Of a DNA stretch of 21,029 nucleotides, positions 1,993 through 20,472 are shown piece after piece (the stretch's first letter is position 1; each line of letters begins with the position of its first letter). A model generated the notes under the pieces. The model was not told the origin of the DNA, did no database searches, and saw only the letters and a program-made list of their open reading frames with translations. Source of the stretch: a virus. Both the position numbers and the translations under genes were made by a program. The stretch lies in UHGV virus genome UHGV-1794847; one strand, 5' to 3'.

Positions 1993-2078
1993 AAGATATT
2001 GTGAATTTGGTTGTTATTCTTAACAAAATATGTACATACAGATGCAACAGATGATATGTCAGATGCACAAAACTGCAT

Positions 2079-2135: not shown

Positions 2136-3428
2136 CTACAACAATGACGGCACTCGTTGAGTTTCAAGTGGGTCACTGACATTGATGCCTGTGTATGCAA
2201 CAAGTCGTTGTATTGGGCCAAGCACGAGTTTTTCGAACATGAGTCGCTTATTCATTGGTGGCACATCTGGCATGTACTTAGGCGTTGGCATTTCACCTGG
2301 CGCAAAGCCAAATGCATCGCAATATTGACGAGAACCAATTGGGATATTTGACAAATCTGACTTTGCTCTATCGACGAAATAGTAGAACACTCTACCGCCT
2401 TCAATCAATGTATATCGTGTTTCCAATCCATGAGCTTTTACAAGTGCGTTATGGTATGCACAAGCCCTGTACTGAGGCAGTACGCCTTTTGCTAACTGCC
2501 ATTCGCCATCATAGCTTAGCACATAGTCATGATACTTGTTTGCATTGACATATGCACAAAGTTTCTCCAAGTCTTGCTCGGCTTCAAAGCGTTTCCATAA
2601 TTTCTGTATGAGCTTTGGATATGTCGCAGAAGTCAATTCACCTCTGAACATTTTCTTGAATGCATAATCAAGCATTTGCCTAACAAGCATTGATGAGCCT
2701 GTTTGAATAAGTTCGATGCCTTTGCCTTGAATGTGCTCAGTAGGGTCTTCGAATACTCGACCATCTACATATATTTGAGCCTTTAAGTACTTTTTCTTTT
2801 GGGCAAATAATGCAGTGTCAGAAATCGTTTCGAGGTCAAATAGCAAAATTGAATTGCCATGACGTTTTGCGAGGTCTGCTGCATATGCCCCATTGAATAA
2901 TTCTTCCATACGATATTTGAATATCGCAAGAATCAAGTCATACCAATTTTTGCCTATGTAGCCAATTGATTTGACAGTTGGCTCAAAGTGAATGTACAAA
3001 GAGTCTGTGTCAATATACAACACTTTGTCTTCATAGGGTTCTTGCTTTGGCGACACAGACAAATCAAAATTGCCCTTCAATTGTGGGTCATTACGCAGCT
3101 TTTCATGCAATTCATAATCACACCACCACTTATTGTTAAGATAGTCATTTGCTACTCGTTCACCAAAGTGAATGAAGTTGCGGCCTTCAGCAGTAATTGA
3201 TTCTGCAACAGCCATATTAAAGAAGTGATAGAAACGATTGCTTGTAGCGCCATATATTGAGTTTCGACAACATTTTGCTGAGACTTGTAGTCCTGCATGC
3301 TTTAGTGATTCTTGCATTGCAAAATCTCTCAATTCAAATAGACGTTCAGTAGACAACTGACTCAAATCACCAGTCAAATCTACTCCATCTATTTCAATTT
3401 TTGACATATCTATCTGAGCTTCTGCCAT
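2136..3428 (-). CDS. Family-B DNA polymerase, C-terminal part (motif B, motif C, thumb)
   Basis: Motif B KCCRNSIYG verified at 3249..3275 (K-x3-NS-x-YG) and motif C YIDTDS at 3000..3017 (YGDTDS-type). Stop TAG at 2136..2138. Start set to ATG at 3426..3428; the track's 3518 start is a TTG codon, and an alternative ATG exists at 3459..3461. Confidence 0.85.
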   Translation of the reverse strand: MAEAQIDMSKIEIDGVDLTGDLSQLSTERLFELRDFAMQESLKHAGLQVSAKCCRNSIYGATSNRFYHFFNMAVAESITAEGRNFIHFGERVANDYLNNKWWCDYELHEKLRNDPQLKGNFDLSVSPKQEPYEDKVLYIDTDSLYIHFEPTVKSIGYIGKNWYDLILAIFKYRMEELFNGAYAADLAKRHGNSILLFDLETISDTALFAQKKKYLKAQIYVDGRVFEDPTEHIQGKGIELIQTGSSMLVRQMLDYAFKKMFRGELTSATYPKLIQKLWKRFEAEQDLEKLCAYVNANKYHDYVLSYDGEWQLAKGVLPQYRACAYHNALVKAHGLETRYTLIEGGRVFYYFVDRAKSDLSNIPIGSRQYCDAFGFAPGEMPTPKYMPDVPPMNKRLMFEKLVLGPIQRLVAYTGINVSDPLETQRVPSLL

Positions 3429-3448: not shown

Positions 3449-3459
3449 TATTGTACAAC
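3449..3459 (-). promoter_or_regulatory. Conserved GTTGTACAATA element (sense strand), 20 nt upstream of the polymerase C-part ATG
   Basis: Plus-strand tattgtacaac at 3449..3459; identical 11-mer also at 8225..8235 and 10317..10327, each upstream of a minus-strand start. Contains a TACAAT -10-like hexamer and the palindrome TTGTACAA. Confidence 0.35.
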
Positions 3460-3496
3460 ATGCAAAACGAGTTTGCACTGTTTTGATACAACGACA

Positions 3497-4459
3497 CTAA
3501 ACTTTTACATGACCACAATCAAACACAGGATAAAATTGCCGTTGTAGCATAGTATTTGTGTCAAAATTGCCATCAATAAGATGTTCGTGTGTGCGCCAAT
3601 TATGCCAATGTTTTTGAATTGTCTGCAAGTTATCTGATTTTTGTGGATTCAATGCAAAGTCTGTTGATAGCACAGGTTCATTGTTCAAATGCGCTTGTAT
3701 TGCTGCAATAACTGCTTCAACAGACATCCACTCAAATGCAGTCACACAAATAAAACCTGCACGCAATGCATCTTGAGTTTTGTAAAAGTGATATGTTGGA
3801 TGAGTTGCTGCGCATTTTGATGCATTTTTGACAAGTGCATCAAAGCTTTTTGCGCTGTTATGCGACACTGTTGGATTGATTTCTACTACGACATTGTCAT
3901 ATCGCAAATCATACAACTTTAAGCCTATTCTGTAGTCATATTCAAAATTTATGCCAAGACGTTCAAATAGCAATGCATGCCAACGTTCATTAAGTTTTGA
4001 CTGTATTTGACCAGATGCTGCTCTGCATTTTGCATGCATGCAAAAATACGGCACATCATATCGCTCTTCACATGTTTGACGCAACTTAGCAATGTTTGCA
4101 GGCCCAAGCTTGCCAAAATGCTTAAGCTTAGTTGCATTTGCTTTGTCAGTATTGCTTGGACCTGCTTTGCCAAAATGTTCAAGCTTTGTCGCATTCGCTT
4201 TGTCAGTATTGCCTGGTCCAAGCTTGCCAAAATGTTTAAGCTTAGTCTGCTTGCATTGCTCTGTTACATATGATAACTGCATATTGTGTTCTACACCATA
4301 TTTTCGCAACATTGCAATTCGCCTGATGTATTTTCTACGAATTTTGCTGTGCGACGTCTTTCTTGGTGCGTATCTAACATATGGTGTATTTGCAATCAAC
4401 TCATCTCGCTCGTTTTCAAGTTTAGCAATACGAGCATCAATCTCTTCTTTTGTCATCAT
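3497..4459 (-). CDS. Repeat-containing putative DNA-binding / homing-endonuclease-like protein, class unassigned
   Basis: ATG at 4457..4459. Three tandem 19-aa repeats (TKLKHFGKLGPGNTDKANA) encoded by a 57-bp DNA repeat; basic N-terminus. Sits between the two polymerase halves, where freestanding endonucleases typically reside. No GIY-YIG or HNH motif recognised; the motif LYDLRYDNVVVEINPTVSH is only loosely nuclease-like. Confidence 0.55.
   Translation of the reverse strand: MMTKEEIDARIAKLENERDELIANTPYVRYAPRKTSHSKIRRKYIRRIAMLRKYGVEHNMQLSYVTEQCKQTKLKHFGKLGPGNTDKANATKLEHFGKAGPSNTDKANATKLKHFGKLGPANIAKLRQTCEERYDVPYFCMHAKCRAASGQIQSKLNERWHALLFERLGINFEYDYRIGLKLYDLRYDNVVVEINPTVSHNSAKSFDALVKNASKCAATHPTYHFYKTQDALRAGFICVTAFEWMSVEAVIAAIQAHLNNEPVLSTDFALNPQKSDNLQTIQKHWHNWRTHEHLIDGNFDTNTMLQRQFYPVFDCGHVKV
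4101..4260 (-). repeat. 57-bp in-frame tandem repeat, about 2.8 copies, inside CDS 3497..4459
   Basis: Units starting near 4108, 4165 and 4222 (gcttgccaaaatgcttaagcttagttgcatttgctttgtcagtattgc and variants); period 57 = 19 codons. Confidence 0.8.
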
Positions 4460-4467
4460 AGCAATTC

Positions 4468-4501
4468 AAAAAATGCAGCAGCAGATGTTCTGCTGCTGCA
4501 T
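4468..4501 (-). terminator. Intrinsic terminator between the SSB-like gene and the endonuclease-like gene
   Basis: Perfect 12-bp stem atgcagcagcag (4473..4484) / ctgctgctgcat (4490..4501), loop atgtt, preceded on plus by an A-run 4468..4472 (a T-run after the hairpin on the minus strand). It ends about 10 nt from the next ATG at 4459. Confidence 0.6.
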
Positions 4502-4543
4502 CGGCAGGTATCTTCACATGTGTTTGAGTTGATTACGATGTGA

Positions 4544-5371
4544 TTAGAATGGCAGGTCGCCATCGTCACCTGCAGCGTCAAATTCAGCTGCAATGTCATA
4601 TACCAACGTCATTGCGATTCGCAAATCGCGCTTCTTAGACTTCAGGCGCATGATATCATGACCAGAATTGTTTGTGATGACTGAACATTCAAACTCTTCA
4701 TTGCCATCAATAAATGACAGCATTGATTTGTGAATTGTGATTGGCGACAAATCAGATGGGTAATTTGCATCAATCACATATTCAAAGTTGTTGTTCTTGG
4801 CAATTAGCCCTCGTTCAGTCGTACGAATCTCAATGCCGGGCAATTCCTTGTCACCAGTATTCAATGAACCATACGATGACATGATGCCAAAGTGATTTGA
4901 CGTCAAATCGAGCTTTCTCAGATTTGTTGTGCTATCAAACAACATTGACATATCATTGTCAGACAGCTCAAAGTAGCCAAGTGATGGCATTGAACAAACC
5001 TGATTGATTTTGAGCTGATTGTTTGAGATTACAATGAGCTCTGCAATTGTATCTGTACCAATTTGTTTGACATAGATTTCAATCATTGCAGATGAGCCAA
5101 ATGCAGCAAGTACTCGATTGTTGAATTGCGTGCCATTGTAAATGAGCGCTTTGACTGTGACATCTTTGAGTGTAGACTCATAATGTTCGCAAATGTCAAG
5201 CACATTAAGTATCTGCGACTTTACAAAGCTACTATTGCCAGCATCAGTTCTGATTCGCTGGTCATTGAGTGAAAAGCTAAGCTTGCCATCGCATTTTAAT
5301 GATGATGCAAACAATGCTCGCAGCATATCAACGTTTGCATTGCGTAATGTAATTTTGTTCAGATTTTCCAT
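4544..5371 (-). CDS. Putative ssDNA-binding protein (SSB-like acidic C-terminal tail)
   Basis: ATG at 5369..5371. C-terminus ...AAEFDAAGDDGDLPF mirrors the acidic tail ending in Phe of bacterial SSB (DDDIPF) and T7 gp2.5; located in the replication module. Fold not verified. Confidence 0.5.
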   Translation of the reverse strand: MENLNKITLRNANVDMLRALFASSLKCDGKLSFSLNDQRIRTDAGNSSFVKSQILNVLDICEHYESTLKDVTVKALIYNGTQFNNRVLAAFGSSAMIEIYVKQIGTDTIAELIVISNNQLKINQVCSMPSLGYFELSDNDMSMLFDSTTNLRKLDLTSNHFGIMSSYGSLNTGDKELPGIEIRTTERGLIAKNNNFEYVIDANYPSDLSPITIHKSMLSFIDGNEEFECSVITNNSGHDIMRLKSKKRDLRIAMTLVYDIAAEFDAAGDDGDLPF

Positions 5372-5439
5372 CTTGTATCTATGTTGTTGATTTTCAATTT
5401 AATATATTGAACAACATTTGTTGACATTTTGCAACATTG

Positions 5440-6695: not shown

Positions 6696-8201
6696 TTACA
6701 ATTTGATTGCACCTCTACGAGCAAGCTCTTCTTCAATCAATCTAACATGATTGTTAGCATACCAAAATTGCAATTTTTTGTGATAATTGCGAATGTCGCC
6801 AAGCTGTTCTTGAGTTTCTTTATACATTGAAGGCTCTCTATTGTCATACAGACAATTATTGACAGACACAAAGTAATTTGGGTCTGCTTTGTAATGCTCG
6901 ATTTCATCAGGATTTGTCAAACGTCTAATAAAGTTGTCTGGTGAAATATTCGCCGAGCGCATACTTGACGGATACAACGAGTTTGCATCAACACAGACAA
7001 CCATACGAGCCCAATGGTTAAATGGCTGCTTAACAAAGCCGCCCTCAAATGAATGTACAACATTCTCCGGACCGCCTTGAGCGCATACAACTTTACCGCC
7101 ATATTTGTTGTACAAATATGTCATCATGACGCCCTCAGATTGCTTAACTGGTCCTTGACAGTGATTCATGTCAATATTTGTCATATTTGACAATGACATT
7201 ACATTTGATATCAAGTCAGTTTTTGCAGCAATCATCGCATTGACCATCGTATCGACAGCATTATATGCAATGAACGTGCATGGATGATACAAATACAGCT
7301 CTTTAAGTGTGCAATCATAGGGCAGCTTACCTACGCCAAACATACGATGTGCAATATAGTCAAGTCGCAATGACTCTTTTTGCCACACTGAATAGTCGTA
7401 TGTGTCCATGAGTTGCATGTAGTCATCAATGTACTTGTGATATGGCATGCCATTGCCCCAGACAGTTCTGCCAACTGGAGATGCCAATGCTAAATCAATA
7501 TTGTGCATTGCGCATCGATTTTTGATATAGATGCTATCGAAGCCATTGATGTTCCAACCTGTCAATGCAGGAATGTTTTTGAAGAGCTTAGTCACCCAAA
7601 AATGCAACAATTCATGCTCATTTGCATGTTGAAAGATTTTGACAGTCGGACGCTCTTTCAAATATGCAGCAAAGCAATGCTGACCCATGTACTCTTGAAT
7701 GATGTTATTGACAAACTCAAATGCATCGTCCAGTGTTGGGTTTTGTTTGCCACAGCTTTTGCGCAAATCATCGTCATTCAACAAGTCAACAGTTGTCTGA
7801 ATGACACAATTACATTGCTCATCACATGTACTTATTGCATTAATGGGCATTTCAGCTTTGTCAGGCTTTGGAAAGCCATTGCCAATTTCAGTCTCAATAT
7901 CGTAAAAGTACAACTTTGGTCTACGATAAGCAAACAATTCAGCTTTGTCAGCTTCAGGCAATTCAAATAAGAATTGCAGTAAGTCAAATTGATTGAATCG
8001 CTTTGCTGTAACTCGAGTTACTGGCAATTTGCGCCAATCTTGAATATCTGCATATTGCGGCTCTACATGGTCTGATATTTGCCATACTGGAAATTGATAT
8101 GGCTGTTCACAGACAGGATATGTTTTAATATCAATGCCACCTTGCTCATTAACGTATGAAACTTCAATGCCATGTGACAAATATGCTACATCGACAATCA
8201 T
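6696..8201 (-). CDS. Family-B DNA polymerase, N-terminal part (3'-5' exonuclease domain plus motif A)
   Basis: Exo I FYDIETE (about 7893..7901), Exo II-like WNINGFD, Exo III-like YNAVD, and motif A DANSLYPS verified at 6966..6989. Ends with TAA at 6696..6698 about 100 aa after motif A, before any motif B. Start set to ATG 8199..8201; the track's 8237 start is TTG. Confidence 0.9.
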   Translation of the reverse strand: MIVDVAYLSHGIEVSYVNEQGGIDIKTYPVCEQPYQFPVWQISDHVEPQYADIQDWRKLPVTRVTAKRFNQFDLLQFLFELPEADKAELFAYRRPKLYFYDIETEIGNGFPKPDKAEMPINAISTCDEQCNCVIQTTVDLLNDDDLRKSCGKQNPTLDDAFEFVNNIIQEYMGQHCFAAYLKERPTVKIFQHANEHELLHFWVTKLFKNIPALTGWNINGFDSIYIKNRCAMHNIDLALASPVGRTVWGNGMPYHKYIDDYMQLMDTYDYSVWQKESLRLDYIAHRMFGVGKLPYDCTLKELYLYHPCTFIAYNAVDTMVNAMIAAKTDLISNVMSLSNMTNIDMNHCQGPVKQSEGVMMTYLYNKYGGKVVCAQGGPENVVHSFEGGFVKQPFNHWARMVVCVDANSLYPSSMRSANISPDNFIRRLTNPDEIEHYKADPNYFVSVNNCLYDNREPSMYKETQEQLGDIRNYHKKLQFWYANNHVRLIEEELARRGAIKL

Positions 8202-8212
8202 ATTATTATCTT

Positions 8213-8623
8213 TTAGAATAGAGATATTGTACAACAATTTGATTCAGGTTGCCATTCTACAATATGCGCATCAAAGTGTTTGTTAAGCCAATGTGCAAGT
8301 ATGTGTCTATGACAAAATGCAGATGGTCTGCACCAGCATAACAGTACAATGTCTCGTTCACCAGCAAGAAGCTTTATGCGATGCAGCATCAAACTTATCT
8401 GTGACAATGCAGCGTCAAGTTTTGCAGTGTATTGCTCTGCATATTGTGCATTGTCAAGCAAGCCTACTTTATGCAAACGAACAAGTGACATGTAATCAGG
8501 CATGACGTCAGTCCATGTAAAATCTGCTATGAAGCCCTTAGGTTTTGTTGCAGATACTTGAACAAGAAATGCGTTATCAGGCAGATGCCTGCATGCATAA
8601 TATGAAGTCAAGATTCTTGTCAT
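8213..8623 (-). CDS. DUF488-like protein
   Basis: ATG at 8621..8623, overlapping the upstream stop as ATGA. C-terminal RDIVLLCWCRPSAFCHRHILAHWL resembles the conserved LLC..E....CHR.l.a..L block of DUF488 (YeaO-like) proteins, recalled from memory. Confidence 0.5.
   Translation of the reverse strand: MTRILTSYYACRHLPDNAFLVQVSATKPKGFIADFTWTDVMPDYMSLVRLHKVGLLDNAQYAEQYTAKLDAALSQISLMLHRIKLLAGERDIVLLCWCRPSAFCHRHILAHWLNKHFDAHIVEWQPESNCCTISLF
8225..8235 (-). promoter_or_regulatory. Conserved GTTGTACAATA element, 23 nt upstream of the polymerase N-part ATG
   Basis: Plus tattgtacaac at 8225..8235; same 11-mer as at 3449..3459 and 10317..10327. Confidence 0.35.
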
Positions 8624-9543: not shown

Positions 9544-9752
9544 GTGTCATTATGCTTACGACGTTCAATTTCTGCCTCAACGTCATCAATGTCATGATTT
9601 ATTTGAGCAAGACGAATGTCATTGTCATACTCTTTAAGTAGCTGTTCAAACAAATCTTCTTTGAACTGCTTCAAACGTTCATTTGAAAATGCTCTTACGT
9701 TCATATCAAAGTCTACATTCTTTTTCAAGTTTCTTGTCATTGATGACAACAT
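9531..9752 (-). CDS. Hypothetical small charged protein (73 aa)
   Basis: ATG at 9750..9752 (alternative ATG at 9738..9740); overlaps the end of the upstream gene by 47 nt, so the start is uncertain. Confidence 0.4.
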   Translation of the reverse strand: MLSSMTRNLKKNVDFDMNVRAFSNERLKQFKEDLFEQLLKEYDNDIRLAQINHDIDDVEAEIERRKHNDTWNS

Positions 9753-10275
9753 TCAACAAATAGTTGACATGTTTGCATGAATGACGATACATAAAGCCTG
9801 GGCAATCACAATACGCTTGCATTGATTCAGGATATAACACAAGTACATGTGAATTGCCTCGTGAGCCAAAGACTTTGTACTTGACCGGTACTGTCGGCAA
9901 GCCAATCAAATTATTGACGTCTTGTGAATGTCTGATATTATGCAGCTGTTTAAGTGAAACCCAGTGTTCTGCGGCTTCAGTAGCAGACATCAAATTAATG
10001 CCAAATGCTTGTTTATATTGCTGTTTGCAAAACAACTGCCATTTGTGTGCATATACAGAGTTCTTTTGCAGCATCTCTTTATGCAACAAATACTCTTCAA
10101 TATATCTTGGCTGCCAACGAGTTGACCATGACGCAAATTCAGGCACAAACTGAATGTCTTCAAGAGTTGTGCCTGCTGGTACAGAATGCCAAGCATCACC
10201 TGTGCATACATAAGTGCCTGTTGTTGTTACAATTATTGCCGGATTACATTTGCCAATGATTTGAATCTTGTCCAT
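9706..10275 (-). CDS. Hypothetical protein with SWIM-like zinc-finger motif
   Basis: ATG at 10273..10275. C-terminal CDCPGFMYRHSCKH fits the C-x-C-x(n)-C-x-H SWIM pattern. Confidence 0.55.
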   Translation of the reverse strand: MDKIQIIGKCNPAIIVTTTGTYVCTGDAWHSVPAGTTLEDIQFVPEFASWSTRWQPRYIEEYLLHKEMLQKNSVYAHKWQLFCKQQYKQAFGINLMSATEAAEHWVSLKQLHNIRHSQDVNNLIGLPTVPVKYKVFGSRGNSHVLVLYPESMQAYCDCPGFMYRHSCKHVNYLLNVVINDKKLEKECRL

Positions 10276-10316: not shown

Positions 10317-10327
10317 TATTGTACAAC
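10317..10327 (-). promoter_or_regulatory. Conserved GTTGTACAATA element, 41 nt upstream of the ATG of gene 9706..10275
   Basis: Plus tattgtacaac at 10317..10327, followed on the sense strand by ATATAATATAAT (A/T-rich). Confidence 0.35.
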
Positions 10328-10335
10328 GCTAAGTG

Positions 10336-10515
10336 TCATTTTGCACTGTCGTCATCAATTTTTATTGATGGCGCAGCAATCAATGCAAGCAAACACCAGT
10401 CACTTTTAGTAACTGCACAAGCAACTGCTATTGCAGCAAAGAAGCTTGCATAAATGATTGCTGCAGCAAGCCAACTTGTTTTATCGCTACATTTGTTGTT
10501 CGATGAGTTCTCCAT
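10336..10515 (-). CDS. Candidate small hydrophobic protein (59 aa), below the ORF-track length threshold
   Basis: Manual translation: ATG 10513..10515, TGA 10336..10338, giving MENSSNNKCSDKTSWLAAAIIYASFFAAIAVACAVTKSDWCLLALIAAPSIKIDDDSAK with one clear hydrophobic helix. Overlaps the 3' end of the upstream gene by 29 nt. Confidence 0.25.
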   Translation of the reverse strand: MENSSNNKCSDKTSWLAAAIIYASFFAAIAVACAVTKSDWCLLALIAAPSIKIDDDSAK

Positions 10516-11898: not shown

Positions 11899-12129
11899 TT
11901 ATTCGAAATCCGTGTCGTCTACATTTTCATTAGGGTCATAGATGAGCCATACAAATGCTGCACAGCCAAGTATGAATAAGCCTCCGCCAATGATTGTCGT
12001 AAAAACCGAACCAATCCAATGCTTCATAATATCACCGAGCGGATTCAATGTTTCATAGCCAATCATAAATGCAACAAATACAACTATTATTGCTGCTATT
12101 GCTTTGTTTGTTGTGTTTCGTTTTATCAT
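11899..12129 (-). CDS. Small membrane protein, two predicted TM helices, acidic C-terminus
   Basis: The track start 12210 is GTG; first ATG at 12127..12129 gives MIKRNTTNKAIAAIIVVFVAFMIGY...IGGGLFILGCAAFVWLIYDPNENVDDTDFE. Confidence 0.5.
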   Translation of the reverse strand: MIKRNTTNKAIAAIIVVFVAFMIGYETLNPLGDIMKHWIGSVFTTIIGGGLFILGCAAFVWLIYDPNENVDDTDFE

Positions 12130-12252
12130 TATTGTAGAGGTTTTAGTGTTCTGTATATTATGTTCGAATATATGAGGACATATATTATATATAGATATAT
12201 TACAACACACAAATCATTTTTGCACACTTTTATAAACCAAAATTTCACAAAA

Positions 12253-12561
12253 ATGCAAACACAAGAAGTTTTAACGGATGTCATTGACATGTCACAATCA
12301 GCTCGCAATTATGCGCTTGGCGCTGTATGTGACGCAGAAGAGCATGAAGATGCTGTTGAAGCAGTTATCGAAGATTACATGCAAGGCGCAAGAGAAATGT
12401 ACGTCAAGTTGACTACATTTGTCAATGTCAATGATGCAGTGCCTGCAAATAACTACCCAGTCATTGCAAAGCTTGCAAATGATTCATATACAATTGCAAC
12501 ATTTGAAAATGACATGTGGTCAGTTGACCATATTGTTGCGTGGCGCAAGTTGCACATTTAA
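12253..12561 (+). CDS. Small acidic protein (102 aa); only plus-strand gene in the window
   Basis: ATG at 12253..12255 after an AT-rich divergent intergenic region; TAA at 12559..12561 followed by a terminator. About 17 D/E versus 6 K/R. The track's longer 12019 start would translate the AT-rich intergenic region and the antisense of the neighbouring gene. Confidence 0.55.
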   Translation: MQTQEVLTDVIDMSQSARNYALGAVCDAEEHEDAVEAVIEDYMQGAREMYVKLTTFVNVNDAVPANNYPVIAKLANDSYTIATFENDMWSVDHIVAWRKLHI

Positions 12562-12575
12562 GATTATAGCACAAC

Positions 12576-12607
12576 AAAAAAGTCCGAGCATTGCTCGGAC
12601 TTTTTTG
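12576..12607. terminator. Bidirectional intrinsic terminator between convergent genes
   Basis: Stem agtccgag (12581..12588) / ctcggact (12594..12601) with 5-nt loop, flanked by A-run 12576..12580 and T-run 12601..12606, so it reads as hairpin plus U-run on both strands. Confidence 0.75.
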
Positions 12608-12622
12608 TTGTGCACTGATTGT

Positions 12623-15600
12623 CTATCGAACAATCGATGTAATTGATGCTACTGGTATCGTACCAATGATTGATGTAGTTGAGCGGAAGTCTGCATAGAC
12701 TTTAATGTCAAATGTGAACTCCTTGCCACCAATGTAGCATATGAAATTCATTGTTTTTGTGTATGACAACTTGTTTTGTTGAGTATTGCTGTCAATGTCA
12801 GATGAACCAACTGCATCAGTCATACGAGCCTGGAACAACAATGGTATCAGCAATGCATTGTTTTCACCAGGCTTAACTACATAAGCTGCAGAATCAGTAC
12901 TATTCGAAACTTGCATTTGATTGACTGTTGTCGGATTCAACAGCAAGAATGCGCCACGACTATTTGCGCCGACTGCATAGACGTCGTTGTCTGTGAATGC
13001 GCATTTAGGCGCGTTTTCTGCAGTAAGTTCAAGTGGCAGAATCTGCTGATACTTTGACTTAATAACTGAATTGAACTTAGCAAGCTCTGCAAATGCAGCA
13101 GTCAAAGCAGCTTTTGTTTGTTCATTCTTGTTTGCTGAGTATGCAATCCATGCTGGATGCTGAACAGACATCAGATTATATGCGTCTGGTGATACTGTCG
13201 ACTTCAATGCAATCGCTTCATAATCATCGTCATTCTTATGAACAAATTTGCGATTTGCTGCTTGTGCAGAAGTGTCAATGTTTTGTGTTTCTACAGTAGA
13301 CGATGATGGTGTTTCTGCAGCAACATACAGCTTTTCTGTGCCTGCTACGTTTTTCAAACCAGCATACAATGTTTGACCCATGTATTGACGAGTGCCATAC
13401 GGTGCTAAGATGTCATTGCTGTCATATGCATCGCTGTTAAGCACTACAGGCACGTCATAGACATCTGCAAAATCTTGTAGTTTGTCTGTAATATGCTGTG
13501 ATAAGTCGCCATGATATCGTGGATACAATGAGATGTTTTCTGCACCAATATTGTAGAACTTCAGCCAATATTGTCGAGTAAGCACTTTGCCATAGTTGTC
13601 TGCTGAAGTAATGTCAAACTTATCTGCATAAGTGCCAGCAAACAAAACATTGCTCGAGCCATTCAGAATTTCTGTTTGATTGCCCTCGTCATCTACGATT
13701 GCAACTCGAAGCATTGAACCTTGATTCAGAATGATGTCTTTGAGCTGCGCAACTTCATTGCTAAGTGACAGCAGTTTTTCATATGTTGTCACTTTTGCAA
13801 GTTCTGATGTGAAGAAGCCTGATGCAATGTTTTGAGCATTGTGAGCATAGTAGATGTTGTTTTCTGAGAATGCATCTGCAATATGCTTGATAAGTCCTTT
13901 GTTCTCAAGCATATTTTCAAGAGCCACATTTTGCTTATCAATTGCAAGTTCATCTTTAAGTGTGACGAACATTGCAGAAGCTGCAAGACTTTCTGGGAAC
14001 TGAATGCTTACGATGTTTGACCACTCAGACTCATTGAGCACGTTTGGATAGCCTGCTTCACCAATTGCTTTGACACGGAACTGAACAATCTCATTAGCAG
14101 AAATTGGAATTTCAAGCTGATTGCATGAGATTGCATCAATGGATTCTGAATTGATTGGTTCCCATTGAATGCTACCATCGACAATGATTTTGCGACGAAG
14201 TGGCGTAAATACTTCATTCCATGTGCTAAATGCTGCTGTCGTAATTGTGCCTGCTGCGTTTTCGATGTCAAATGTGTCTGCCTTTGCTACTGTGCCATTC
14301 AATGACGCATATCTGTACTGCACCTTGAACTGCACAATGTTTTGTGCAGCAGTAAATCTACTGATTGCGGGGTCTTGTACTGGCAAGAAGCCTCGAACTC
14401 TAAACTTCGGATTATATAATGCGTCATATGCAGCGCCATTGATATTCAGCATCTCATCAATGATATTTGTGAGTGTTTGCAGTCGTTCTGCTCTTTGCTG
14501 AGTCAACGTAACATATTGCGTAGATGCTTTTTGACGTTCAACGTCATTCTTGAAATTATTTGTATTGAGCTTTGACATCACAGATGCGATATCAGAGTCA
14601 AGTACCGACATTTCTTGCTGAACTGCTCGTTTTTGATTGTACAATGACAAAATTCGAGATTTGTCAGTGTTGTCAATCAAATGTGTGTTAAGCTGAATAA
14701 CTTTGAATGATTCTGCAGACAATTGCAAACGATTTGGCTTAATTGCATATTGCGATGGCGCAAGCATATCAGTAGTCAATGCTGCAATATAAGCGCCAAT
14801 TGATGCGTCGCCATGTGACAACATATACGAGTTTGCATTGACAAGCTCATTTGTTGCAGTACGAATTGTAAGTGTTGCAGTGTCAATCAAAACTGCTGGG
14901 CTGTACTGAGCTACTGTGTTATATGCATCATGCACAGGCGACAAGAACAACACGAATTTTTCAGAATGTCGAAGTGGTACTTCAACGACTTTTCGAACAA
15001 TGGGCTCTACAAAGACGAGGTCAGTGACTTCTACATTCAATGCATTCAAGCCTGCAGTACGCTGCAGTATACATGTTTGCGACAGTTTGTCAATCGAAAC
15101 AATTTGCAGTAATACTGAACCAGTCGGGTCTGATAATGTGTCACCGACTTTCAATGTCAGTGAACCGGCAACCTTTGCGTCAATTGCATCATATACAATG
15201 CTGTCAAGTTTGACAGCAATTGTGCCATTGTTCGCATTTTGCTTCTTGAGAATTTTGAAGCTGCCACTTGATGCTGCTCGTCGTGGTCGCAAATTAACTG
15301 TGAAGTCTTCAAGAGTATAGTCATCATCAGTATGCCAGCCATGCGCATCAATTTCAGCAAGCAATGCAGCATGGCTCATTTCAATGTCTGTTTGTGCCAC
15401 AATTTGCTGCAATGCAGCAAACATGGCATCTGAGCATATGTACTTTGTAACTTGACATTGTTTAAGATATGATGATGCTTGACCAGTCACATCAATTTGC
15501 ACATGCATACCAAGCGCTGTTGTGCGTTCAAACATATCATTGCCAAGTGCGACAACATTGTTATCTTCTGCTATCGTGCCCTGCAAAGTCTTCAATGTCT

Positions 15601-15928: not shown

Positions 15929-15953
15929 ATGCTTAAATGTAATTTGTTCTTGT

Positions 15954-16005
15954 TTTTGATGCAAGATGCAAAACAATTAAAATTGTTTTGATGCAAAATG
16001 CAAAA
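15954..16005 (-). repeat. Two 20-bp direct repeats TTTTGATGCAA(G/A)ATGCAAAA, 32 bp apart, upstream of the large gene
   Basis: Copies at 15954..15973 and 15986..16005 with one mismatch; sense-strand reading TTTTGCAT(C/T)TTGCATCAAAA, 26 to 77 nt upstream of ATG 15928. Confidence 0.6.
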
Positions 16006-16030
16006 ATCTGTTAGATTTTTGATATGTACA

Positions 16031-16067
16031 AACAAAAAGACTGCTGCAAATTATTGCAGCAGTCTTT
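16031..16067 (-). terminator. Intrinsic terminator downstream of gene 16086..16979
   Basis: Perfect 12-bp stem agactgctgcaa (16038..16049) / ttgcagcagtct (16054..16065), 4-nt loop, plus-strand A-run 16034..16037 giving a T-run after the hairpin on the minus strand. Confidence 0.7.
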
Positions 16068-17003: not shown

Positions 17004-17188
17004 TGTCTTGTATATGGTCTACGGTGTGTGAAACACTCTACGGTATGATGTTGAAATTGACTGCAAGCAACAATGATGTGACATCTTCGCCCAATAGAAA
17101 TGAACCTGTAGCAAAACCAACGGCATCAAGTTGATTTGTAAACGTGCTCAGCGGCAATGTCAGTATGATGTAGCCTAACTTAACAGAG

Positions 17189-17198
17189 CCCCCCCCCC
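17189..17198. repeat. Homopolymeric C10 tract (G10 on minus strand) in the 287-bp intergenic region
   Basis: cccccccccc at 17189..17198 within otherwise AT-rich non-coding sequence 16980..17266. Confidence 0.8.
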
Positions 17199-17266
17199 GT
17201 GTTTTGCGAGCGATAGTGGTCTTGAGTTACATGTGACATATATGAAATGTTTGTTTGAATATGTAT

Positions 17267-17879: not shown

Positions 17880-18161
17880 TCAGATTAGCAATTGAGCAGC
17901 AACTGCACCAAGTGCAGCAGACATGAATGATTGCGCAATATATGACAAACTCCAGCAGCGTTCTACTACATAGAGTTTTGACAAGCCACATGCAATGATA
18001 TCAAGTGCGACTGCACACAATGTAACTACAAATAAATGTGTACGCTGTGGAATCTCTACTATGTCATATGTTACAAGTGTTGTTACAAATGCAATAAAAC
18101 TAACCATAACGCAATGCAACATTGCAGTCATTAAGCGTTCAATGAAATGTTGACTGTTCAT
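17880..18161 (-). CDS. Small hydrophobic membrane protein (93 aa)
   Basis: ATG at 18159..18161; stop TGA at 17880..17882, one nt from the next ATG; predominantly hydrophobic with about 3 predicted TM segments. Confidence 0.55.
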   Translation of the reverse strand: MNSQHFIERLMTAMLHCVMVSFIAFVTTLVTYDIVEIPQRTHLFVVTLCAVALDIIACGLSKLYVVERCWSLSYIAQSFMSAALGAVAAQLLI

Positions 18162-18163
18162 AT

Positions 18164-19042
18164 TTAGTCTTGGCCTTTATCAATTGTGGCAATTTTTGAC
18201 AGAGTTTCAGGCAAAAAGTCTGAGTCTTTCTTATGCGTGTTATTTGATGGCTGCTGCACTTTTGCAGGATACGTGCCAAATACAGGTGCAAGTGGGCTTG
18301 TGTATGGGTTGCCTTGAGCTGTCGTCTGGAGCTGCTTCATAACTTCTGCAAGATTATCTACAACTTCTTTCACATAGTCAAGAACATTTTGATGCGCAGT
18401 TTTGTTGTCATCTCCAACTACGCAAGGCTGTTCTGATTTATCTGTGCTACCAAAGCTCAAGTGACCATCAGCAGTCATATGAATGACGCCATTTTTATCA
18501 GCGTCAGTAGTCATATGAATTGATTTATCCTTACGCAAATTGATGTCTGTGCCATTGTAGTGAATATGCCATCCTTGCTCTGGTGTCCACCATATGCCAA
18601 ACTTGCCCTCAGCACCATATCGTTCAGCATCATCATAGACTACAATCTTTGCTTTGGCGTTTTCATCACCAATGACGTCTTTTGCGATATCTGAACGAGA
18701 ATCAAGATGCAGCCAAGTCATATTGTAGACGCCTCGACTCAAATCAAGCATGACCCAATCGCCAACAATTGGCGCATCATACATGTTCATCATGCTGCTA
18801 TCTGCATAGCACCATGGCAGCTTGTCTGTAGCAATTTCATTGTCAGCAAATCGAGTAAAGCCATCAATTTGACAGCGGATACGACATTGTAACATGTCAT
18901 CATCAACATCAACAACTTCACCAATGAGCTTAACAGGCATACCCTCTGTCAAAGACCCAATTGATGATGCAGTTATTGATGCATTGTATGCTGATATCTT
19001 TTCAAACAGCTCTTCTTGAGTAACAAGCAACATATCAGACAT
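18164..19042 (-). CDS. Hypothetical protein (292 aa), possibly virion-associated
   Basis: ATG at 19040..19042 overlapping the upstream TAA (TAATG). Contains duplicated SIHMTTDAD / VIHMTADGH segments; function not recognised. Confidence 0.7.
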   Translation of the reverse strand: MSDMLLVTQEELFEKISAYNASITASSIGSLTEGMPVKLIGEVVDVDDDMLQCRIRCQIDGFTRFADNEIATDKLPWCYADSSMMNMYDAPIVGDWVMLDLSRGVYNMTWLHLDSRSDIAKDVIGDENAKAKIVVYDDAERYGAEGKFGIWWTPEQGWHIHYNGTDINLRKDKSIHMTTDADKNGVIHMTADGHLSFGSTDKSEQPCVVGDDNKTAHQNVLDYVKEVVDNLAEVMKQLQTTAQGNPYTSPLAPVFGTYPAKVQQPSNNTHKKDSDFLPETLSKIATIDKGQD

Positions 19043-20472
19043 TACATTGAATCTTCATACACGTTGATGCGACCAAGCTTTGGCAGTTTTTCTTGGTCTG
19101 GTTCATACACAGGATTTGCAAGTGCTTTCTGTGATAAGCTGTCATCATATTTTGCTACTGCAGACCCTTTGAGCAATTGCTTTGCTCTTGAATATGCAAA
19201 CTGTGGATTTGTCAATGCTGCAATTTCAACAGCATTCAAGCCATAGACATTGCCAACAGTCTTGCCAACAAGTATTCGACTTGCTTGCATATTGATTTCA
19301 GCCAACGCATTTGCTGCAGTAGACAAAGCAAATTCTTTTGCATATTCAAGTGCTTCTTTAGCAGCTTTGTTAACTGCATCTTTAAGCAATTGTTTGACAG
19401 ACTGGCCTTTCATTGTCGACACAACTTGCTGCGTAATCTTGCCATACTTGCTATCTTTTGCAAGCTTGACAAATTGCTGGCCATAAGTCTCTTTCTTTTT
19501 CTCAACTGTTTCTGACGTATCAGTGTCACTAAGAAGTTTTTGAGACTGCACTACAAGGCCTTTGTGACTATCTTTCATTGCTGCAAATGCAGATGAAATT
19601 GACAATGTGCCATATGACACTTTGATGTTGTTTGTCGCCATTGTAGGCTCAGCAGTGTTGTCTATATCTTGCACAAAGTTTGCGCCAGAATCAGGCATAA
19701 ACGCGCATTGACCAAAGTTGAAAAGCACATACTGTCCAGCATTGATTACGACTGCAATGTCATCAGGTCTTGCCATTTGAGTTGATGATAACACGCCTTC
19801 TATTCGTGCTTGCTGAATTGCTTTGATGTCTTCGCCGTAGTTTGCAACTTCTGTTCTCGTATCACCAAAACTGTGCTCAGACATACCAAGCATTTGCTCA
19901 ACTTCATTGTCAAGCTTGAGTGACTTATCATCTGCAAGTTCTTCTTGGAATATGCGAACTTCTGTTACATACACAAACATGTTGAAGCGTTGCAAGTTCA
20001 GTGGTAGCACATAGACCATGCGGTCGTAGTCATATAACACTTGCTTGAGCAGCGTGTTAATTGTTGCAAATCGCCAGTCAATGCTTTCTGTCACAGTAAG
20101 CCCAACGGTTTTGTCATTCAAAATGACTTCTTTCATTGTTCGCTTATATGCATCAGCAAGTCCTTGAATGCCTGTAAAGCAATGAAATGCAGAGTCCTGA
20201 ATTGCTTGCAGCATCTTTATGACAATTTCAAGCTGTGCATATCGTGTTTCATCGCCAATTCGCTTCAAATATGCCAATGCGCTGTTCTTAAACTTAGCAT
20301 CTGCAAGTAAACCCATTTCAGAGTCAAAGTTAAAGAACACTCTGAATGTCAAATATGTTGGGTCTTGATATGCATTGCACAACACACCATTTATGACCTC
20401 TGGGTCAAGTGACATGAACTGGTATACACCATTGAACATGTCTATGCGTGAAGTTGCGTGATTTGATGGCAT
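19042..20472 (-). CDS. Hypothetical protein (476 aa), possibly virion-associated
   Basis: ATG at 20470..20472, first gene after terminator 20529..20561; no Walker A or other catalytic motif seen. Confidence 0.75.
   Translation of the reverse strand: MPSNHATSRIDMFNGVYQFMSLDPEVINGVLCNAYQDPTYLTFRVFFNFDSEMGLLADAKFKNSALAYLKRIGDETRYAQLEIVIKMLQAIQDSAFHCFTGIQGLADAYKRTMKEVILNDKTVGLTVTESIDWRFATINTLLKQVLYDYDRMVYVLPLNLQRFNMFVYVTEVRIFQEELADDKSLKLDNEVEQMLGMSEHSFGDTRTEVANYGEDIKAIQQARIEGVLSSTQMARPDDIAVVINAGQYVLFNFGQCAFMPDSGANFVQDIDNTAEPTMATNNIKVSYGTLSISSAFAAMKDSHKGLVVQSQKLLSDTDTSETVEKKKETYGQQFVKLAKDSKYGKITQQVVSTMKGQSVKQLLKDAVNKAAKEALEYAKEFALSTAANALAEINMQASRILVGKTVGNVYGLNAVEIAALTNPQFAYSRAKQLLKGSAVAKYDDSLSQKALANPVYEPDQEKLPKLGRINVYEDSM

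What the first reader, a model, noticed from the sequence alone, without database searches (positions are those of the whole stretch)
3449..3459. Identical 11-mer GTTGTACAATA upstream of both polymerase halves and a third gene
The sense-strand element GTTGTACAATA (plus tattgtacaac) occurs at 3449..3459, 8225..8235 and 10317..10327, at 20, 23 and 41 nt upstream of the respective ATGs. It contains a TACAAT -10-like hexamer and the perfect palindrome TTGTACAA. Degenerate versions (ATGTACA) sit upstream of the 502..1992 gene (about 2030..2040) and the large gene (16021..16033). Sharing it between the two polymerase halves suggests coordinate control, either as a promoter or as a dimeric regulator site. 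The palindrome also occurs inside coding sequence (7107..7114, 14637..14644), so it is not exclusive to intergenic DNA.
Basis: seen in the sequence. Interest (0 to 1): 0.55.

Follow-up and report, generated by a model that had tools for sequence, protein, structure and literature searches.

The report
Repeated promoter of a gut phage
The repeated 11-mer is the core of a two-box promoter that a roughly 175-kb human-gut phage places in front of its DNA-replication genes, which is ordinary in kind; the notable point is that its sequence does not fit the presumed host's promoter rules, while close relatives of the phage encode a sigma factor that could read it.

Summary
GTTGTACAATA occurs three times on the coding (minus) strand, 20, 23 and 41 nt upstream of the ATGs of PolB-C, PolB-N and a 189-aa gene.

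It is half of a bipartite element, (T/G)TGCAA–N13–GTTG–TACAAT, giving a 17-nt spacer between the two hexamers. The window holds five copies, all co-oriented with genes, against 0.007 expected. Two 95%-identical, 175-kb relatives carry 13 and 14 strict copies each. These sit upstream of topoisomerase II subunits, ribonucleotide reductase, an SbcD-like gene by N-terminal sequence, homing endonucleases and a gp55-like late sigma gene. Variants break the palindrome but keep TAnnAT.

I read it as a pre-replicative promoter class, not a polymerase-specific signal. Relatives at 64% identity lack it upstream of the PolB halves.

It is probably the late promoter.

The element mismatches the Bacteroidota sigma-A consensus at three of six near-invariant positions. 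The close relatives encode a sigma-70-family factor with regions 2 and 4, itself behind a host-type promoter. My inference is a cascade: host sigma, then phage sigma reading this motif, then a gp55-like sigma.

Indels between close relatives, including homing-endonuclease genes, break at the motif, as at T4-type PeSLs.

It is a new member of a known kind and of moderate interest.

The parts
3450..3478 (-). Class A promoter upstream of PolB C-half: -35 GTGCAA (3478-3473), 13-nt variable spacer, GTTG (3459-3456), -10 TACAAT (3455-3450).
   Evidence: The PolB-C ATG at 3428 lies 20 nt after the 11-mer.
3484..3492 (-). GTTGTATCA, a decayed upstream copy of the core, just after the homing-endonuclease stop. 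Many sites in relatives have the same tandem arrangement.
   Evidence: L154 shows a 27-nt promoter-unit duplication that generates the same structure.
5406..5434 (-). Class A variant TTGCAA-N13-GTTG-TTCAAT, upstream of the unknown gene 4544-5371.
   Evidence: Conserved in both 95%-identical relatives.
8226..8254 (-). Class A promoter upstream of PolB N-half: TGGCAA-N13-GTTG-TACAAT. It overlaps the last codons of the DUF488 gene 8213-8623.
10318..10346 (-). Class A promoter upstream of the 189-aa zinc-finger-like gene 9706-10275: GTGCAA-N13-GTTG-TACAAT. The -35 box overlaps the end of ORF 10336-10515.
12197..12225 (-). Class A variant GTGCAA-N13-GTTG-TAATAT, upstream of the small membrane-protein gene 11899-12132. 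The orthologous position in the 64% relatives carries TTGCAC-N17-TACTAT.
2136..3428 (-). DNA polymerase B, C-terminal (polymerase) half.
   Evidence: phrog_1918 2e-46; PF00136.
6696..8201 (-). DNA polymerase B, N-terminal (exonuclease) half.
3497..4459 (-). Free-standing homing-endonuclease-like gene (DUF7487). It is absent from both 95%-identical relatives. Its right-hand junction falls at the class A core.
4472..4502 (-). Intrinsic terminator. In relatives lacking the endonuclease gene it abuts the PolB-C promoter, forming a terminator-promoter cassette.
   Evidence: -23.9 kcal/mol, z -6.6.
2028..2034 (-). Class B motif TACATAT (late-type) upstream of the head-fibre-like gene 502-1992.
   Evidence: The orthologous site in the 64% relatives is TACATAT and in MA9V-1 is TATACATAA.
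16022..16028 (-). Class B motif TACATAT, immediately after terminator 16036-16067 and upstream of the 1101-aa gene.
17259..17265 (-). A third intergenic class B motif, TACATAT.

Best explanation
GTTGTACAATA is the extended -10 region of a phage-specific, two-box promoter with consensus a(T/G)TGCAAa - N12/13 - GTTG-TACAAT-at, giving a 17-nt spacer between the hexamers. It recurs roughly every 2 kb through the replication module of a ~175-kb T4-distant myovirus-type phage of the PAU/PTm1/MA9V-1 group from the human gut.

An RNA polymerase holoenzyme carrying a sigma-70-family factor with both region 4 (reads -35) and region 2 (reads -10) would bind it. Transcription would start about 7 nt downstream of TACAAT, giving short leaders of about 10-50 nt.

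The genes it drives are pre-replicative: both PolB halves, topoisomerase II subunits, ribonucleotide reductase, an SbcD-like gene (assigned from its N-terminal sequence only), homing endonucleases and the gp55-like late sigma factor.

Shown here:
- the bipartite anatomy;
- the copy number, strand and position of the copies;
- the classes of downstream genes;
- the mismatch to the Bacteroidota host consensus;
- a phage sigma-70-family gene in the two 95%-identical sister genomes, behind a host-type promoter.

Inferred:
- The phage-encoded sigma factor (regions 2 and 4), not the host sigma-A, reads this class. That would make these 'middle' promoters in a cascade: host sigma-A, then phage sigma (this motif), then gp55-like sigma (TACATAT late promoters).
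- The palindrome TTGTACAA is a by-product of GTTG abutting TACAAT.
- The conserved core doubles as a recombination hotspot at which gene cassettes, notably homing-endonuclease genes, are gained and lost, as at T4-type PeSLs.
For: **Anatomy**
- All three exact copies have TGCAA or GGCAA exactly 13 nt upstream.
- A relaxed bipartite pattern gives 5 hits on the gene strand and 0 on the other, against 0.0067 expected per strand.
- A whole-collection scan of TGCAA-N13-GTTGTACAAT found 13 and 14 copies in the two sister genomes, all on the coding strand. Nearly all of the roughly 90 other matching stretches were single hits in unrelated contigs.
- Among 25 exact cores on the coding strand, 22 have TGCAA and 2 have GGCAA at N13. 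The one without is intragenic.
- Information content is high in the two boxes and low in the spacer, so these are not simple recent duplicates.
- The core-to-ATG distance is mostly 16-59 nt.

**Variants**
- GTAGTACAAT, GATGTACAAT, GTGGTACAAT, GTTGTTCAAT, GTTGTATAAT and GTTGTAATAT all keep TAnnAT and the -35 box but break the palindrome.
- The 64% relatives keep the architecture at the orthologous site (TTGCAC-N17-TACTAT) and elsewhere (TGCAC-N18-TACAAT), without GTTG.

**Downstream genes**
- Topoisomerase II large and medium subunits, ribonucleotide reductase with an intein (both read from the sequence), a nucleotidyltransferase and homing endonucleases.
- A gp55-like late sigma (phrog_234, 1.3e-8).

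**Not host-type**
- TACAATAT differs from the Bacteroidota -7 consensus TAHHTTTG at -8, -6 and -5, three of the six near-invariant positions (PMC6847099, PMC7366714).
- TAHHTTTG is not enriched in sense-strand non-coding DNA of the held sequence.

**Phage sigma**
- L089:1431-2324 matches Sigma70_r2 at 33.2 bits and Sigma70_r4 at 26.2 bits, both above the Pfam cut-offs, and phrog_351 at 5e-25.
- It matches TIGR02937 at 67 bits.
- Orthologues exist in MA9V-1, PAU and PTm1.
- Its own promoter is host-type, TTTCACATGT-N12-TTAAATTTATA. This is near-identical to the repeated early-type motif of Chryseobacterium phage MA9V-1 and to the region upstream of the MA9V-1 sigma gene, which has TATATTTG.

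**Recombination**
- Junctions of homing-endonuclease presence/absence polymorphisms, and several smaller rearrangements, fall at the motif.
Against: - There are no transcript data, so no transcription start site is shown.
- The host is not identified. Bacteroidota is inferred from three things: the absence of Shine-Dalgarno sequences, the nearest isolates infecting Flavobacteriia, and the human-gut origin of relatives. If the host sigma-A had classical specificity, the motif would simply be an early host-type promoter.
- The assignment of the phage sigma to this promoter class is circumstantial. The sigma gene was seen in the 95%-identical sister genomes, not in the window itself.
- Only about 40-45% of each sister genome was held, and those stretches were fetched because they contain the motif. 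Gene-class statistics are therefore biased.
- MA9V-1 has an orthologous sigma but no recognisable class A equivalent in the 47 kb examined.
- The near-invariance of C in TACAAT and of GTTG exceeds what sigma-70 -10 recognition usually demands. A second protein recognising the palindrome remains possible.
Confidence: 0.75

Rival explanations
1. [quoted passage not shown] The phage-encoded sigma-70-family factor serves some other promoter set.
For: - The geometry, TTG-N20-TA, is that of primary-sigma promoters in both Proteobacteria and Bacteroidota.
- T-12, A-11 and T-7 match both consensuses (PMC6847099).
- T4 early promoters are also unusually uniform, with extra conserved positions (PMC2988021).
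- The host is unknown.
- Only one clear host-type promoter was found in the held sequence. If class A is not early, the early promoters of this phage are largely unaccounted for.
Against: - There are mismatches at T-8, T-6 and G-5 of the Bacteroidota -7 box, which are near-invariant in F. johnsoniae (PMC6847099).
- E. coli-type promoters are reported not to function in Bacteroidota (PMC6847099, PMC7366714).
- The phage's own sigma gene, and the MA9V-1 early-type repeats, use a clearly different, host-like motif.
- The motif precedes replication genes and the late sigma gene, which are typical middle functions.
Confidence: 0.25
2. The perfect palindrome TTGTACAA is an operator for a dimeric phage or host regulator. 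It could be a repressor that shuts off, or an activator that turns on, this gene set. It overlaps the -10 region and acts either instead of or in addition to the promoter function.
For: - The 8-bp palindrome is perfect in nearly all copies and extends imperfectly to ATnTTGTACAAnAT.
- Conservation of GTTG and of the C in TACAAT is stronger than a -10 hexamer alone needs.
Against: - Functional-looking variants break either half of the palindrome yet keep TAnnAT and the -35 box.
- The 64% relatives keep the -35/-10 architecture but not the palindrome.
- The strongest flanking conservation is one-sided: TGCAAa at a fixed 13 nt upstream.
- The three palindrome copies inside genes lack any context and are near chance expectation.
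Confidence: 0.1
3. The repeat is primarily a recombination or mobility element with no transcriptional role. It could be the end of a mobile cassette, a homing-endonuclease target, or a miniature repeat spreading through intergenic DNA.
For: Indel junctions between 95-99%-identical genomes coincide with the motif. Homing-endonuclease genes carry a copy at their 3' end. Tandem partial duplications occur.
Against: - The spacer between the boxes is not conserved while the two boxes are. That is the signature of selection on function, not of copy-paste.
- Every copy is co-oriented with, and just upstream of, a gene.
- The sister lineage keeps the two-box architecture with a different sequence.
- In T4-type phages the same association, PeSLs, is explained by promoters acting as recombination substrates (PMC2839356).
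Confidence: 0.05

Closest known systems
T4-type PeSLs (promoter-early stem-loops; Arbiol et al. 2010 PMC2839356; Comeau et al. 2014 PMC4122927)
   Same: - It is a highly uniform two-box promoter repeated tens of times per genome in a T4-like replication/accessory gene context.
- Copies flank and separate the halves of a split gene-43-type DNA polymerase. PeSL-like sequences were reported on either side of g43 and between g43A and g43B.
- Indels between very close relatives have their junctions at the element.
- Some copies abut a strong terminator.
   Different: - The stem-loop is not an intrinsic part. The short inverted repeat TGCAAA/TTTGCA in some spacers is weak (-6.6 kcal/mol, z -1.2), and many copies have none.
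- The sequence is not the host primary-sigma consensus, if the host is Bacteroidota.
- The cassettes seen moving here are homing-endonuclease genes rather than ORFans.
- Mini-circles were not testable.
Phage middle promoters read by a phage-encoded sigma-70-family factor (Bacillus phage SPO1 gp28; cascade summarised in PMC13401047; consensus from my own knowledge)
   Same: - A -35/-10-type two-box promoter with a 17-nt spacer and a phage-specific sequence.
- It sits upstream of replication genes.
- The phage encodes a sigma factor expressed from a host-type promoter, plus a separate late sigma system.
   Different: - The sigma-promoter pairing here is inferred, not shown.
- The late system is T4 gp55-like, not SPO1 gp33/34.
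- The presumed host phylum, Bacteroidota, has a divergent primary sigma.
T4 early and middle promoters (Hinton 2010, PMC2988021)
   Same: - Early: very uniform strong -35/-10 promoters with extra conserved positions.
- Middle: a phage-specific upstream box combined with a stringent TAnnnT -10, upstream of replication genes.
   Different: - The upstream box lies at the normal -35 position (17-nt spacer), not 12±1 bp from the -10 as the MotA box does.
- It is TGCAAa rather than TGCTTtA.
- There is no TGn extended -10. G/T/T/G occupy -16 to -13 instead.
Bacteroidota primary-sigma promoters (-33 TTTG / -7 TAnnTTTG; PMC7366714, PMC6847099)
   Same: The overall geometry (TTG about 20 nt upstream of TA) and T-12, A-11 and T-7.
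   Different: A, A and T at -8, -6 and -5, where T, T and G are near-invariant. The phage's sigma gene promoter (TTAAATTTATA) and the MA9V-1 repeats fit this family much better.
   Same: TACATAT is a single -10-type box without a -35 box. It sits after terminators and upstream of structural genes, in a phage that encodes a gp55-like sigma.
   Different: The sequence differs (TACATAT against TATAAATA). Function is untested.

Membership tests
Sigma-70-family two-box (-35/-10) promoter | Two conserved boxes separated by a spacer of 17±1 nt that is variable in sequence | tested here: met
   (T/G)TGCAA-N17-TACAAT in 24 of 25 exact-core sites. Information content is high in the boxes and low in the spacer.
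Sigma-70-family two-box (-35/-10) promoter | A -10 hexamer that keeps A at position 2 and T at position 6 (TAnnnT) across variants | tested here: met
   TACAAT, TTCAAT, TATAAT, TAATAT and TACTAT: T6 is kept in all of them. A2 is kept in all but TTCAAT (5411-5406).
Sigma-70-family two-box (-35/-10) promoter | Located upstream of, and co-oriented with, genes | tested here: met
   All 27 strict copies in the two sister genomes and all 5 in the window are on the coding strand. The distance to the ATG is mostly 16-59 nt.
Sigma-70-family two-box (-35/-10) promoter | A transcript 5' end 5-9 nt downstream of the -10, and holoenzyme binding | not testable with these tools
   No transcriptome or biochemical data.
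Bacteroidota sigma-A promoter | A -7 box TAHHTTTG with near-invariant T-12, A-11, T-8, T-7, T-6 and G-5 | tested here: not met
   TACAATAT matches -12, -11 and -7 only (against PMC6847099).
T4-type PeSL | A strong, uniform promoter repeated many times, preferentially in plastic regions | tested here: met
   13-14 strict copies per 175 kb, with more relaxed ones. Copies flank variable genes.
T4-type PeSL | An associated stable stem-loop acting as terminator or attenuator | tested here: inconclusive
   Some copies abut strong terminators, for example the L001/L002 PolB-C site and c152288 position 114127. The spacer inverted repeat is weak (z -1.2), and many copies have no hairpin.
T4-type PeSL | Junctions of insertions, deletions and replacements between close relatives fall in the element | tested here: met
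   The window endonuclease gene 3463-4469 and the L002 endonuclease insertion both end at a copy. L154 has a 27-nt unit duplication. L155 and the c152288/c149023 comparison show flank swaps. Other indels, at about 15941-16017 and about 17118, are not at the motif.
T4-type PeSL | Formation of excised mini-circles | not testable with these tools
   Needs PCR or sequencing of phage DNA.
T4 middle (MotA/AsiA) promoter | A MotA box (a/t)(a/t)(a/t)TGCTTtA centred at -30, 12±1 bp from the -10 | tested here: not met
   The box is TGCAAa and lies 16-17 nt from the -10 (against PMC2988021). MotA and AsiA homologues were not searched for.
T4 late (gp55) promoter | A single extended -10 box with no -35 box, upstream of late or structural genes | tested here: not met
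   Class A has a conserved -35 box and precedes replication genes. The TACATAT sites do fit this description.
Palindromic operator of a dimeric regulator | Two-fold symmetric conservation, with both half-sites required | tested here: inconclusive
   The core palindrome is perfect in most copies. However, variants break either half, the flanking conservation is asymmetric, and the sister lineage lacks the palindrome.

The most novel reading that the evidence does not exclude
This would be the cognate promoter of the 'complete', RpoD-like sigma factor that T4-like and group-2 jumbo phages are known to encode but whose targets are uncharacterised.

On this reading, a Bacteroidota gut phage uses host sigma-A only to express its own sigma factor from a host-type TTTCAyATGT...TTAAATTTA promoter. 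That factor then redirects host core polymerase to E. coli-like -35/-10 promoters (TGCAAa-N-GTTGTACAAT) that the divergent Bacteroidota sigma-A cannot read. A gp55-like sigma then reads TACATAT late promoters.

That is a three-sigma cascade combining SPO1-like and T4-like logic. The middle promoters would also serve as recombination sites for homing-endonuclease cassettes.
Probability: 0.4. Interest if true: 0.6.

Novelty: new member of a known kind. Interest (0 to 1): 0.42.

Why it matters
Phage-specific promoter families are routine, so the bare finding is ordinary.

Two things give it some value.

- **A testable sigma-promoter pairing.** It supplies a precise hypothesis for an uncultured human-gut phage lineage, whose host is probably Bacteroidota. 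Bacteroidota transcription signals are unusual, and phage transcription programmes in the phylum are almost unstudied. If the phage sigma reads this motif, the sigma plus its promoter would form an orthogonal expression module for Bacteroidota.
- **PeSL-like behaviour beyond the T4 group.** It would extend the pattern of promoters serving as recombination junctions for gene cassettes, here homing endonucleases around a split DNA polymerase. So far that pattern has been described for T4-type coliphages and vibriophages, which are only distantly related to this group.

Tried and rejected
- **Nucleotide search of the whole window against GenBank phages:** no match.
- **tRNA and Rfam scans of the window:** nothing. 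The motif is not part of a known RNA.
- **Generic sigma-70 and terminator scan:** not enriched over shuffles. It caught only site 2, because GTGCAA scores 3 of 6 against TTGACA.
- **PolB-N in bacterial genomes, to find a host:** no relative found.
- **Distant-relative scan of IMG/VR:** only relatives at 30% identity or below besides the two sister genomes. The single metagenome scan supplied the useful 64% relatives.
- **Restriction-site explanation for the palindrome:** GTAC and TGTACA are at expectation, so there is no avoidance or retention story.
- **Spacer hairpin as an intrinsic PeSL stem-loop:** weak and not significant.
- **MotA-box reading of TGCAAa:** rejected on spacing.
- **gp55-type late promoter reading of the 11-mer:** rejected, because it has a -35 box and precedes replication genes and the gp55-like gene itself.
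- **Scan for more host-type early promoters across the sister genomes:** a strict pattern found only the sigma-gene promoter. How many host-type promoters the phage has therefore remains unknown.
- **Other contigs carrying the strict pattern:** L041 (114 kb) carries it twice, inside a 258-nt tandem repeat. It showed no detectable similarity to this phage in the tblastx comparison, and the remaining hits are single chance matches.
- **Literature search for the sequence itself:** it returned only cloning primers.
Full report
**1. The observation.** GTTGTACAATA occurs exactly three times, all on the minus strand, at 3449-3459, 8225-8235 and 10317-10327. Every substantial gene but one lies on that strand. 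The three copies end 20, 23 and 41 nt before the ATGs at 3428 (PolB C-half), 8201 (PolB N-half) and 10275 (a 189-aa zinc-finger-like protein).

TTGTACAA occurs six times against about 1 expected.

One caveat applies to the window-only statistics. Eleven different 11-mers occur at least three times in the window, against about 2.9 in Markov simulations. The triple by itself is therefore not strong. The context makes it real.

**2. Anatomy.** All three copies carry a second box exactly 13 nt upstream: GTGCAA at two sites and TGGCAA at one. Allowing the -10 hexamer to vary as T[AT][ACT][AT]AT gives five sites, all on the minus strand and all just upstream of start codons:

| Site (window, minus strand) | Downstream gene |
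|---|---|
| 3478-3450 | PolB C-half, 2136-3428 |
| 5434-5406 | unknown gene, 4544-5371 |
| 8254-8226 | PolB N-half, 6696-8201 |
| 10346-10318 | 189-aa gene, 9706-10275 |
| 12225-12197 | small membrane protein, 11899-12132 |

The plus strand has none, and 0.0067 are expected per strand. The layout is (T/G)TGCAA-N17-TACAAT, with GTTG filling positions -16 to -13. This is the geometry of a sigma-70-family promoter.

**3. What the window is.** The PolB halves, dUTPase, MazG, baseplate and adaptor-like genes and tblastn hits place it near three groups: Chryseobacterium phage MA9V-1 (36% identity), Tenacibaculum phages PTm1/PTm5, and Sphingomonas phage PAU. MA9V-1 is syntenic and also has a split PolB.

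IMG/VR holds two sister genomes of 174.6 and 175.6 kb that are about 95% identical in DNA. The metagenome scan added two 99%-identity fragments and three contigs at 63-64% PolB-N identity. Two of those three are labelled human gut metagenome.

No gene has a Shine-Dalgarno sequence. Together with the Flavobacteriia hosts of the nearest isolates, this points to a Bacteroidota host (PMC6847099). That is an inference. No host was identified.

**4. Genome-wide behaviour.** A scan of all IMG/VR for TGCAA-N13-GTTGTACAAT returned 116 stretches. About 90 were single hits in unrelated contigs, roughly the chance number. Contig 149023 had 13 matches and contig 152288 had 14, all on the coding strand, spread from 23 to 160 kb.

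Sites were then selected by the exact 10-nt core alone, on the coding strand:
- 22 of 25 have TGCAA at N13.
- 2 have GGCAA.
- The single exception is intragenic.

Information content is high in the two boxes and near zero in the spacer. The copies are therefore held by selection on the boxes, not by recent copying.

One caveat: the sister-genome stretches I hold, about 40-45% of each, were fetched because they contain the motif.

**5. Promoter or operator?** Natural variants that retain the -35 box and the upstream-of-gene position are GTAGTACAAT, GATGTACAAT, GTGGTACAAT, GTTGTTCAAT, GTTGTATAAT and GTTGTAATAT. They break either half of the palindrome but preserve TAnnAT.

In the 64% lineage, the site orthologous to 12197-12225 reads TTGCAC-N17-TACTAT, and another reads TGCAC-N18-TACAAT. 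Neither has GTTG or the palindrome.

I conclude the functional core is the two-box promoter. The palindrome is most simply a consequence of GTTG abutting TACAAT. A regulator that uses the palindrome is not excluded, because GTTG and the C of TACAAT are unusually invariant.

**6. Not specific to the polymerase.** Genes downstream of the motif in the sister genomes include:
- topoisomerase II large and medium subunits;
- a ribonucleotide reductase with an intein (both the enzyme and the intein are read from the sequence);
- a nucleotidyltransferase;
- an SbcD-like gene (assigned from its N-terminal sequence only);
- several homing-endonuclease paralogues;
- a T4 gp55-like late sigma factor (phrog_234, 1.3e-8), about 1 kb beyond window position 1.

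In the 64% relatives neither PolB half has such an element. The genes are tightly packed behind their upstream neighbours. One sister genome has GTAGTACAATT at the PolB-C site. The shared motif therefore reflects a general pre-replicative promoter class. It is not a device to couple the two halves.

**7. The 'degenerate versions' are another motif.** TACATAT is the other word most enriched upstream of genes. It occurs at 2028-2034, 16022-16028 and 17259-17265 in the window, and at about 14 intergenic sense-strand sites in 79 kb of contig 152288. There are none in antisense non-coding DNA.

It typically follows a terminator and precedes structural genes. It has no -35 partner. At the head-fibre orthologue it is exactly conserved in the 64% lineage. 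MA9V-1 has TATACATA(A/C) at the corresponding positions. With a gp55-like sigma present, this is the probable late promoter, comparable to T4 TATAAATA.

**8. Who reads class A?** The Bacteroidota primary sigma recognises TTTG / TAnnTTTG. T-12, A-11, T-8, T-7, T-6 and G-5 are near-invariant, and classical -35/-10 promoters are reported not to work in the phylum (PMC7366714, PMC6847099). TACAATAT mismatches at -8, -6 and -5. TAHHTTTG is not enriched in sense non-coding DNA of the held sequence.

The hit was then confirmed independently:
- L089:1431-2324 (minus strand, 298 aa) matches Sigma70_r2 at 33.2 bits and Sigma70_r4 at 26.2 bits, both above the Pfam cut-offs.
- It matches phrog_351 at 5e-25 and TIGR02937 at 67 bits.
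- Its nearest solved relatives are SigA, RpoD and RpoS.
- Orthologues are annotated in MA9V-1 and PAU and are present in PTm1.
- This agrees with the published observation that T4-like 'group 2' jumbo phages encode both a minimal and a complete sigma (PMC7824862).

The sigma gene's own upstream region is GTTTCACATGTGACAAAAAATGATTAAATTTATA. Compare two MA9V-1 sequences:
- the repeated motif TTTTCATATGTCGTAAAAAATGCTTAAATTTATAC;
- the MA9V-1 sigma gene upstream region, TTTCCATATGTCAAATATTTTTCTTATATTTGTA, whose -7 box TATATTTG is a perfect host consensus.

The most economical model is therefore a three-step cascade:
1. The host sigma-A expresses the phage sigma.
2. The phage sigma, which has a region 4 and can therefore specify a -35 box, reads class A.
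3. Class A expresses the replication genes and the gp55-like sigma, which reads TACATAT.

The first and last elements rest on sequence evidence. The pairing of the phage sigma with class A is an inference, and I put it at roughly 0.5-0.6.

**9. Recombination at the motif.** The 320-aa homing-endonuclease-like gene 3497-4459 (DUF7487; phrog_3339) is absent from both sister genomes. There, a strong terminator directly abuts the PolB-C promoter. The right-hand junction of the insertion is at the core, at 3460/3462.

L002 carries a paralogous 399-aa endonuclease inserted after PolB-N. A class A copy lies at its 3' end, and the -35 box of that copy lies in the last codons of the endonuclease gene.

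Further changes at class A copies:
- L154 has a 27-nt promoter-unit duplication. This explains the frequent upstream GTTGTATCA remnants, one of which is at 3484-3492.
- L155 and the two sister genomes differ by flank swaps around other copies.

This matches the behaviour described for T4-type PeSLs. Those flank gene 43, and similar sequences lie between g43A and g43B in some Aeromonas phages (PMC2839356).

It is not a full match. The stem-loop component is inconsistent here, and other indels in the window are not at the motif.

**10. Verdict.** The 'polymerase-coupling' reading and the lumping-in of the TGTACATAT sites are not supported. The element is a new member of a known kind, a phage-specific pre-replicative promoter with PeSL-like behaviour. 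The MA9V-1 paper, the only paper on this phage group that I searched for the term, does not mention promoters. Interest is moderate. It rests mainly on the testable sigma-promoter pairing in a probable Bacteroidota phage.

Noticed in passing
whole window; also 78.8 kb of contig IMGVR_UViG_3300045988_152288: GATC is completely absent: 0 against about 53 expected in the window, and 0 against about 220 in the relative. CTAG is almost absent (1 against 25, and 1 against 80), and CATG is at about 0.58 of expectation. This suggests strong avoidance of GATC-specific restriction in the host.
   Followed up: no
window 2028-2034, 16022-16028, 17259-17265 (minus strand); L157 12922; L119 upstream of 12461 and 25181: A second promoter-like motif, TACATAT, sits after terminators and upstream of structural genes. 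It has no -35 box and is conserved at orthologous sites in 64%-identity relatives. MA9V-1 has TATACATA(A/C) there. It is the probable gp55-type late promoter.
   Followed up: partly
L089:1431-2324 (minus strand) = contig 152288 positions 18066-18962; promoter at about 18963-19040: The sister genomes encode a sigma-70-family factor with regions 2 and 4. Orthologues exist in MA9V-1, PAU and PTm1. Its upstream region is a Bacteroidota-type promoter nearly identical to a motif repeated in Chryseobacterium phage MA9V-1.
   Followed up: partly
L002 about 19440-19960 (contig 149023, promoter core at 80259); about 1 kb beyond window position 1: A T4 gp55-like late sigma factor gene (166 aa; phrog_234 at 1.3e-8; weak Sigma70_r2 match) is preceded by a class A promoter.
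   Followed up: partly
window 3497-4459; L002 11515-12714; contig 152288 positions 19065-20123, 89483-90556, 90613-91674, 106982-108220 and 112405-113604: A family of free-standing homing-endonuclease-like genes has many paralogues per genome. They share DUF7487, repeated K..RYGN modules, an (E/N)(I/L)NPT(V/I)SHNS motif and a VYDCGH C-terminus. They show presence/absence polymorphism between 95%-identical genomes.
   Followed up: partly
window 15941-16017 (minus strand): A 77-nt leader insert made of TTTTGCAT repeats lies between the late-type motif and the start of the 1101-aa gene. It is absent from both sister genomes, where the leader is 23 nt.
   Followed up: no
window 12253-12561 (+) and 12569-12612: This is the only convincing plus-strand gene (102 aa, unknown function). 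It diverges from the class A promoter at 12197-12225 and is followed by a very stable bidirectional terminator of -31.4 kcal/mol.
   Followed up: no
window 17189-17198 and about 17115-17121: A C10 homopolymer (G10 on the coding strand) lies inside a truncated ORF that starts MSHVTQDHYRSQN. The sister genome has two tandem paralogues here and a G7 run. The window lacks about 770 nt relative to L001. This could be a deletion between paralogues, slippage or an assembly error.
   Followed up: no
contig 149023, gene downstream of the promoter at 42892: A ribonucleotide reductase (1073 aa) appears to contain an intein, with a Hint-like CFTGDTKVLV...HNFF segment. This is read from the sequence only.
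   Followed up: no
L041 (IMGVR_UViG_3300012352_000310), minus strand 2182-2700: A phage with no detectable similarity in the tblastx comparison carries GTTGTACAAT-N..-GTTGTATAAT in three 258-nt tandem repeats, upstream of a gene that has a Shine-Dalgarno sequence. There, TTGTAC could serve as the -35 box and TATAAT as the -10.
   Followed up: no
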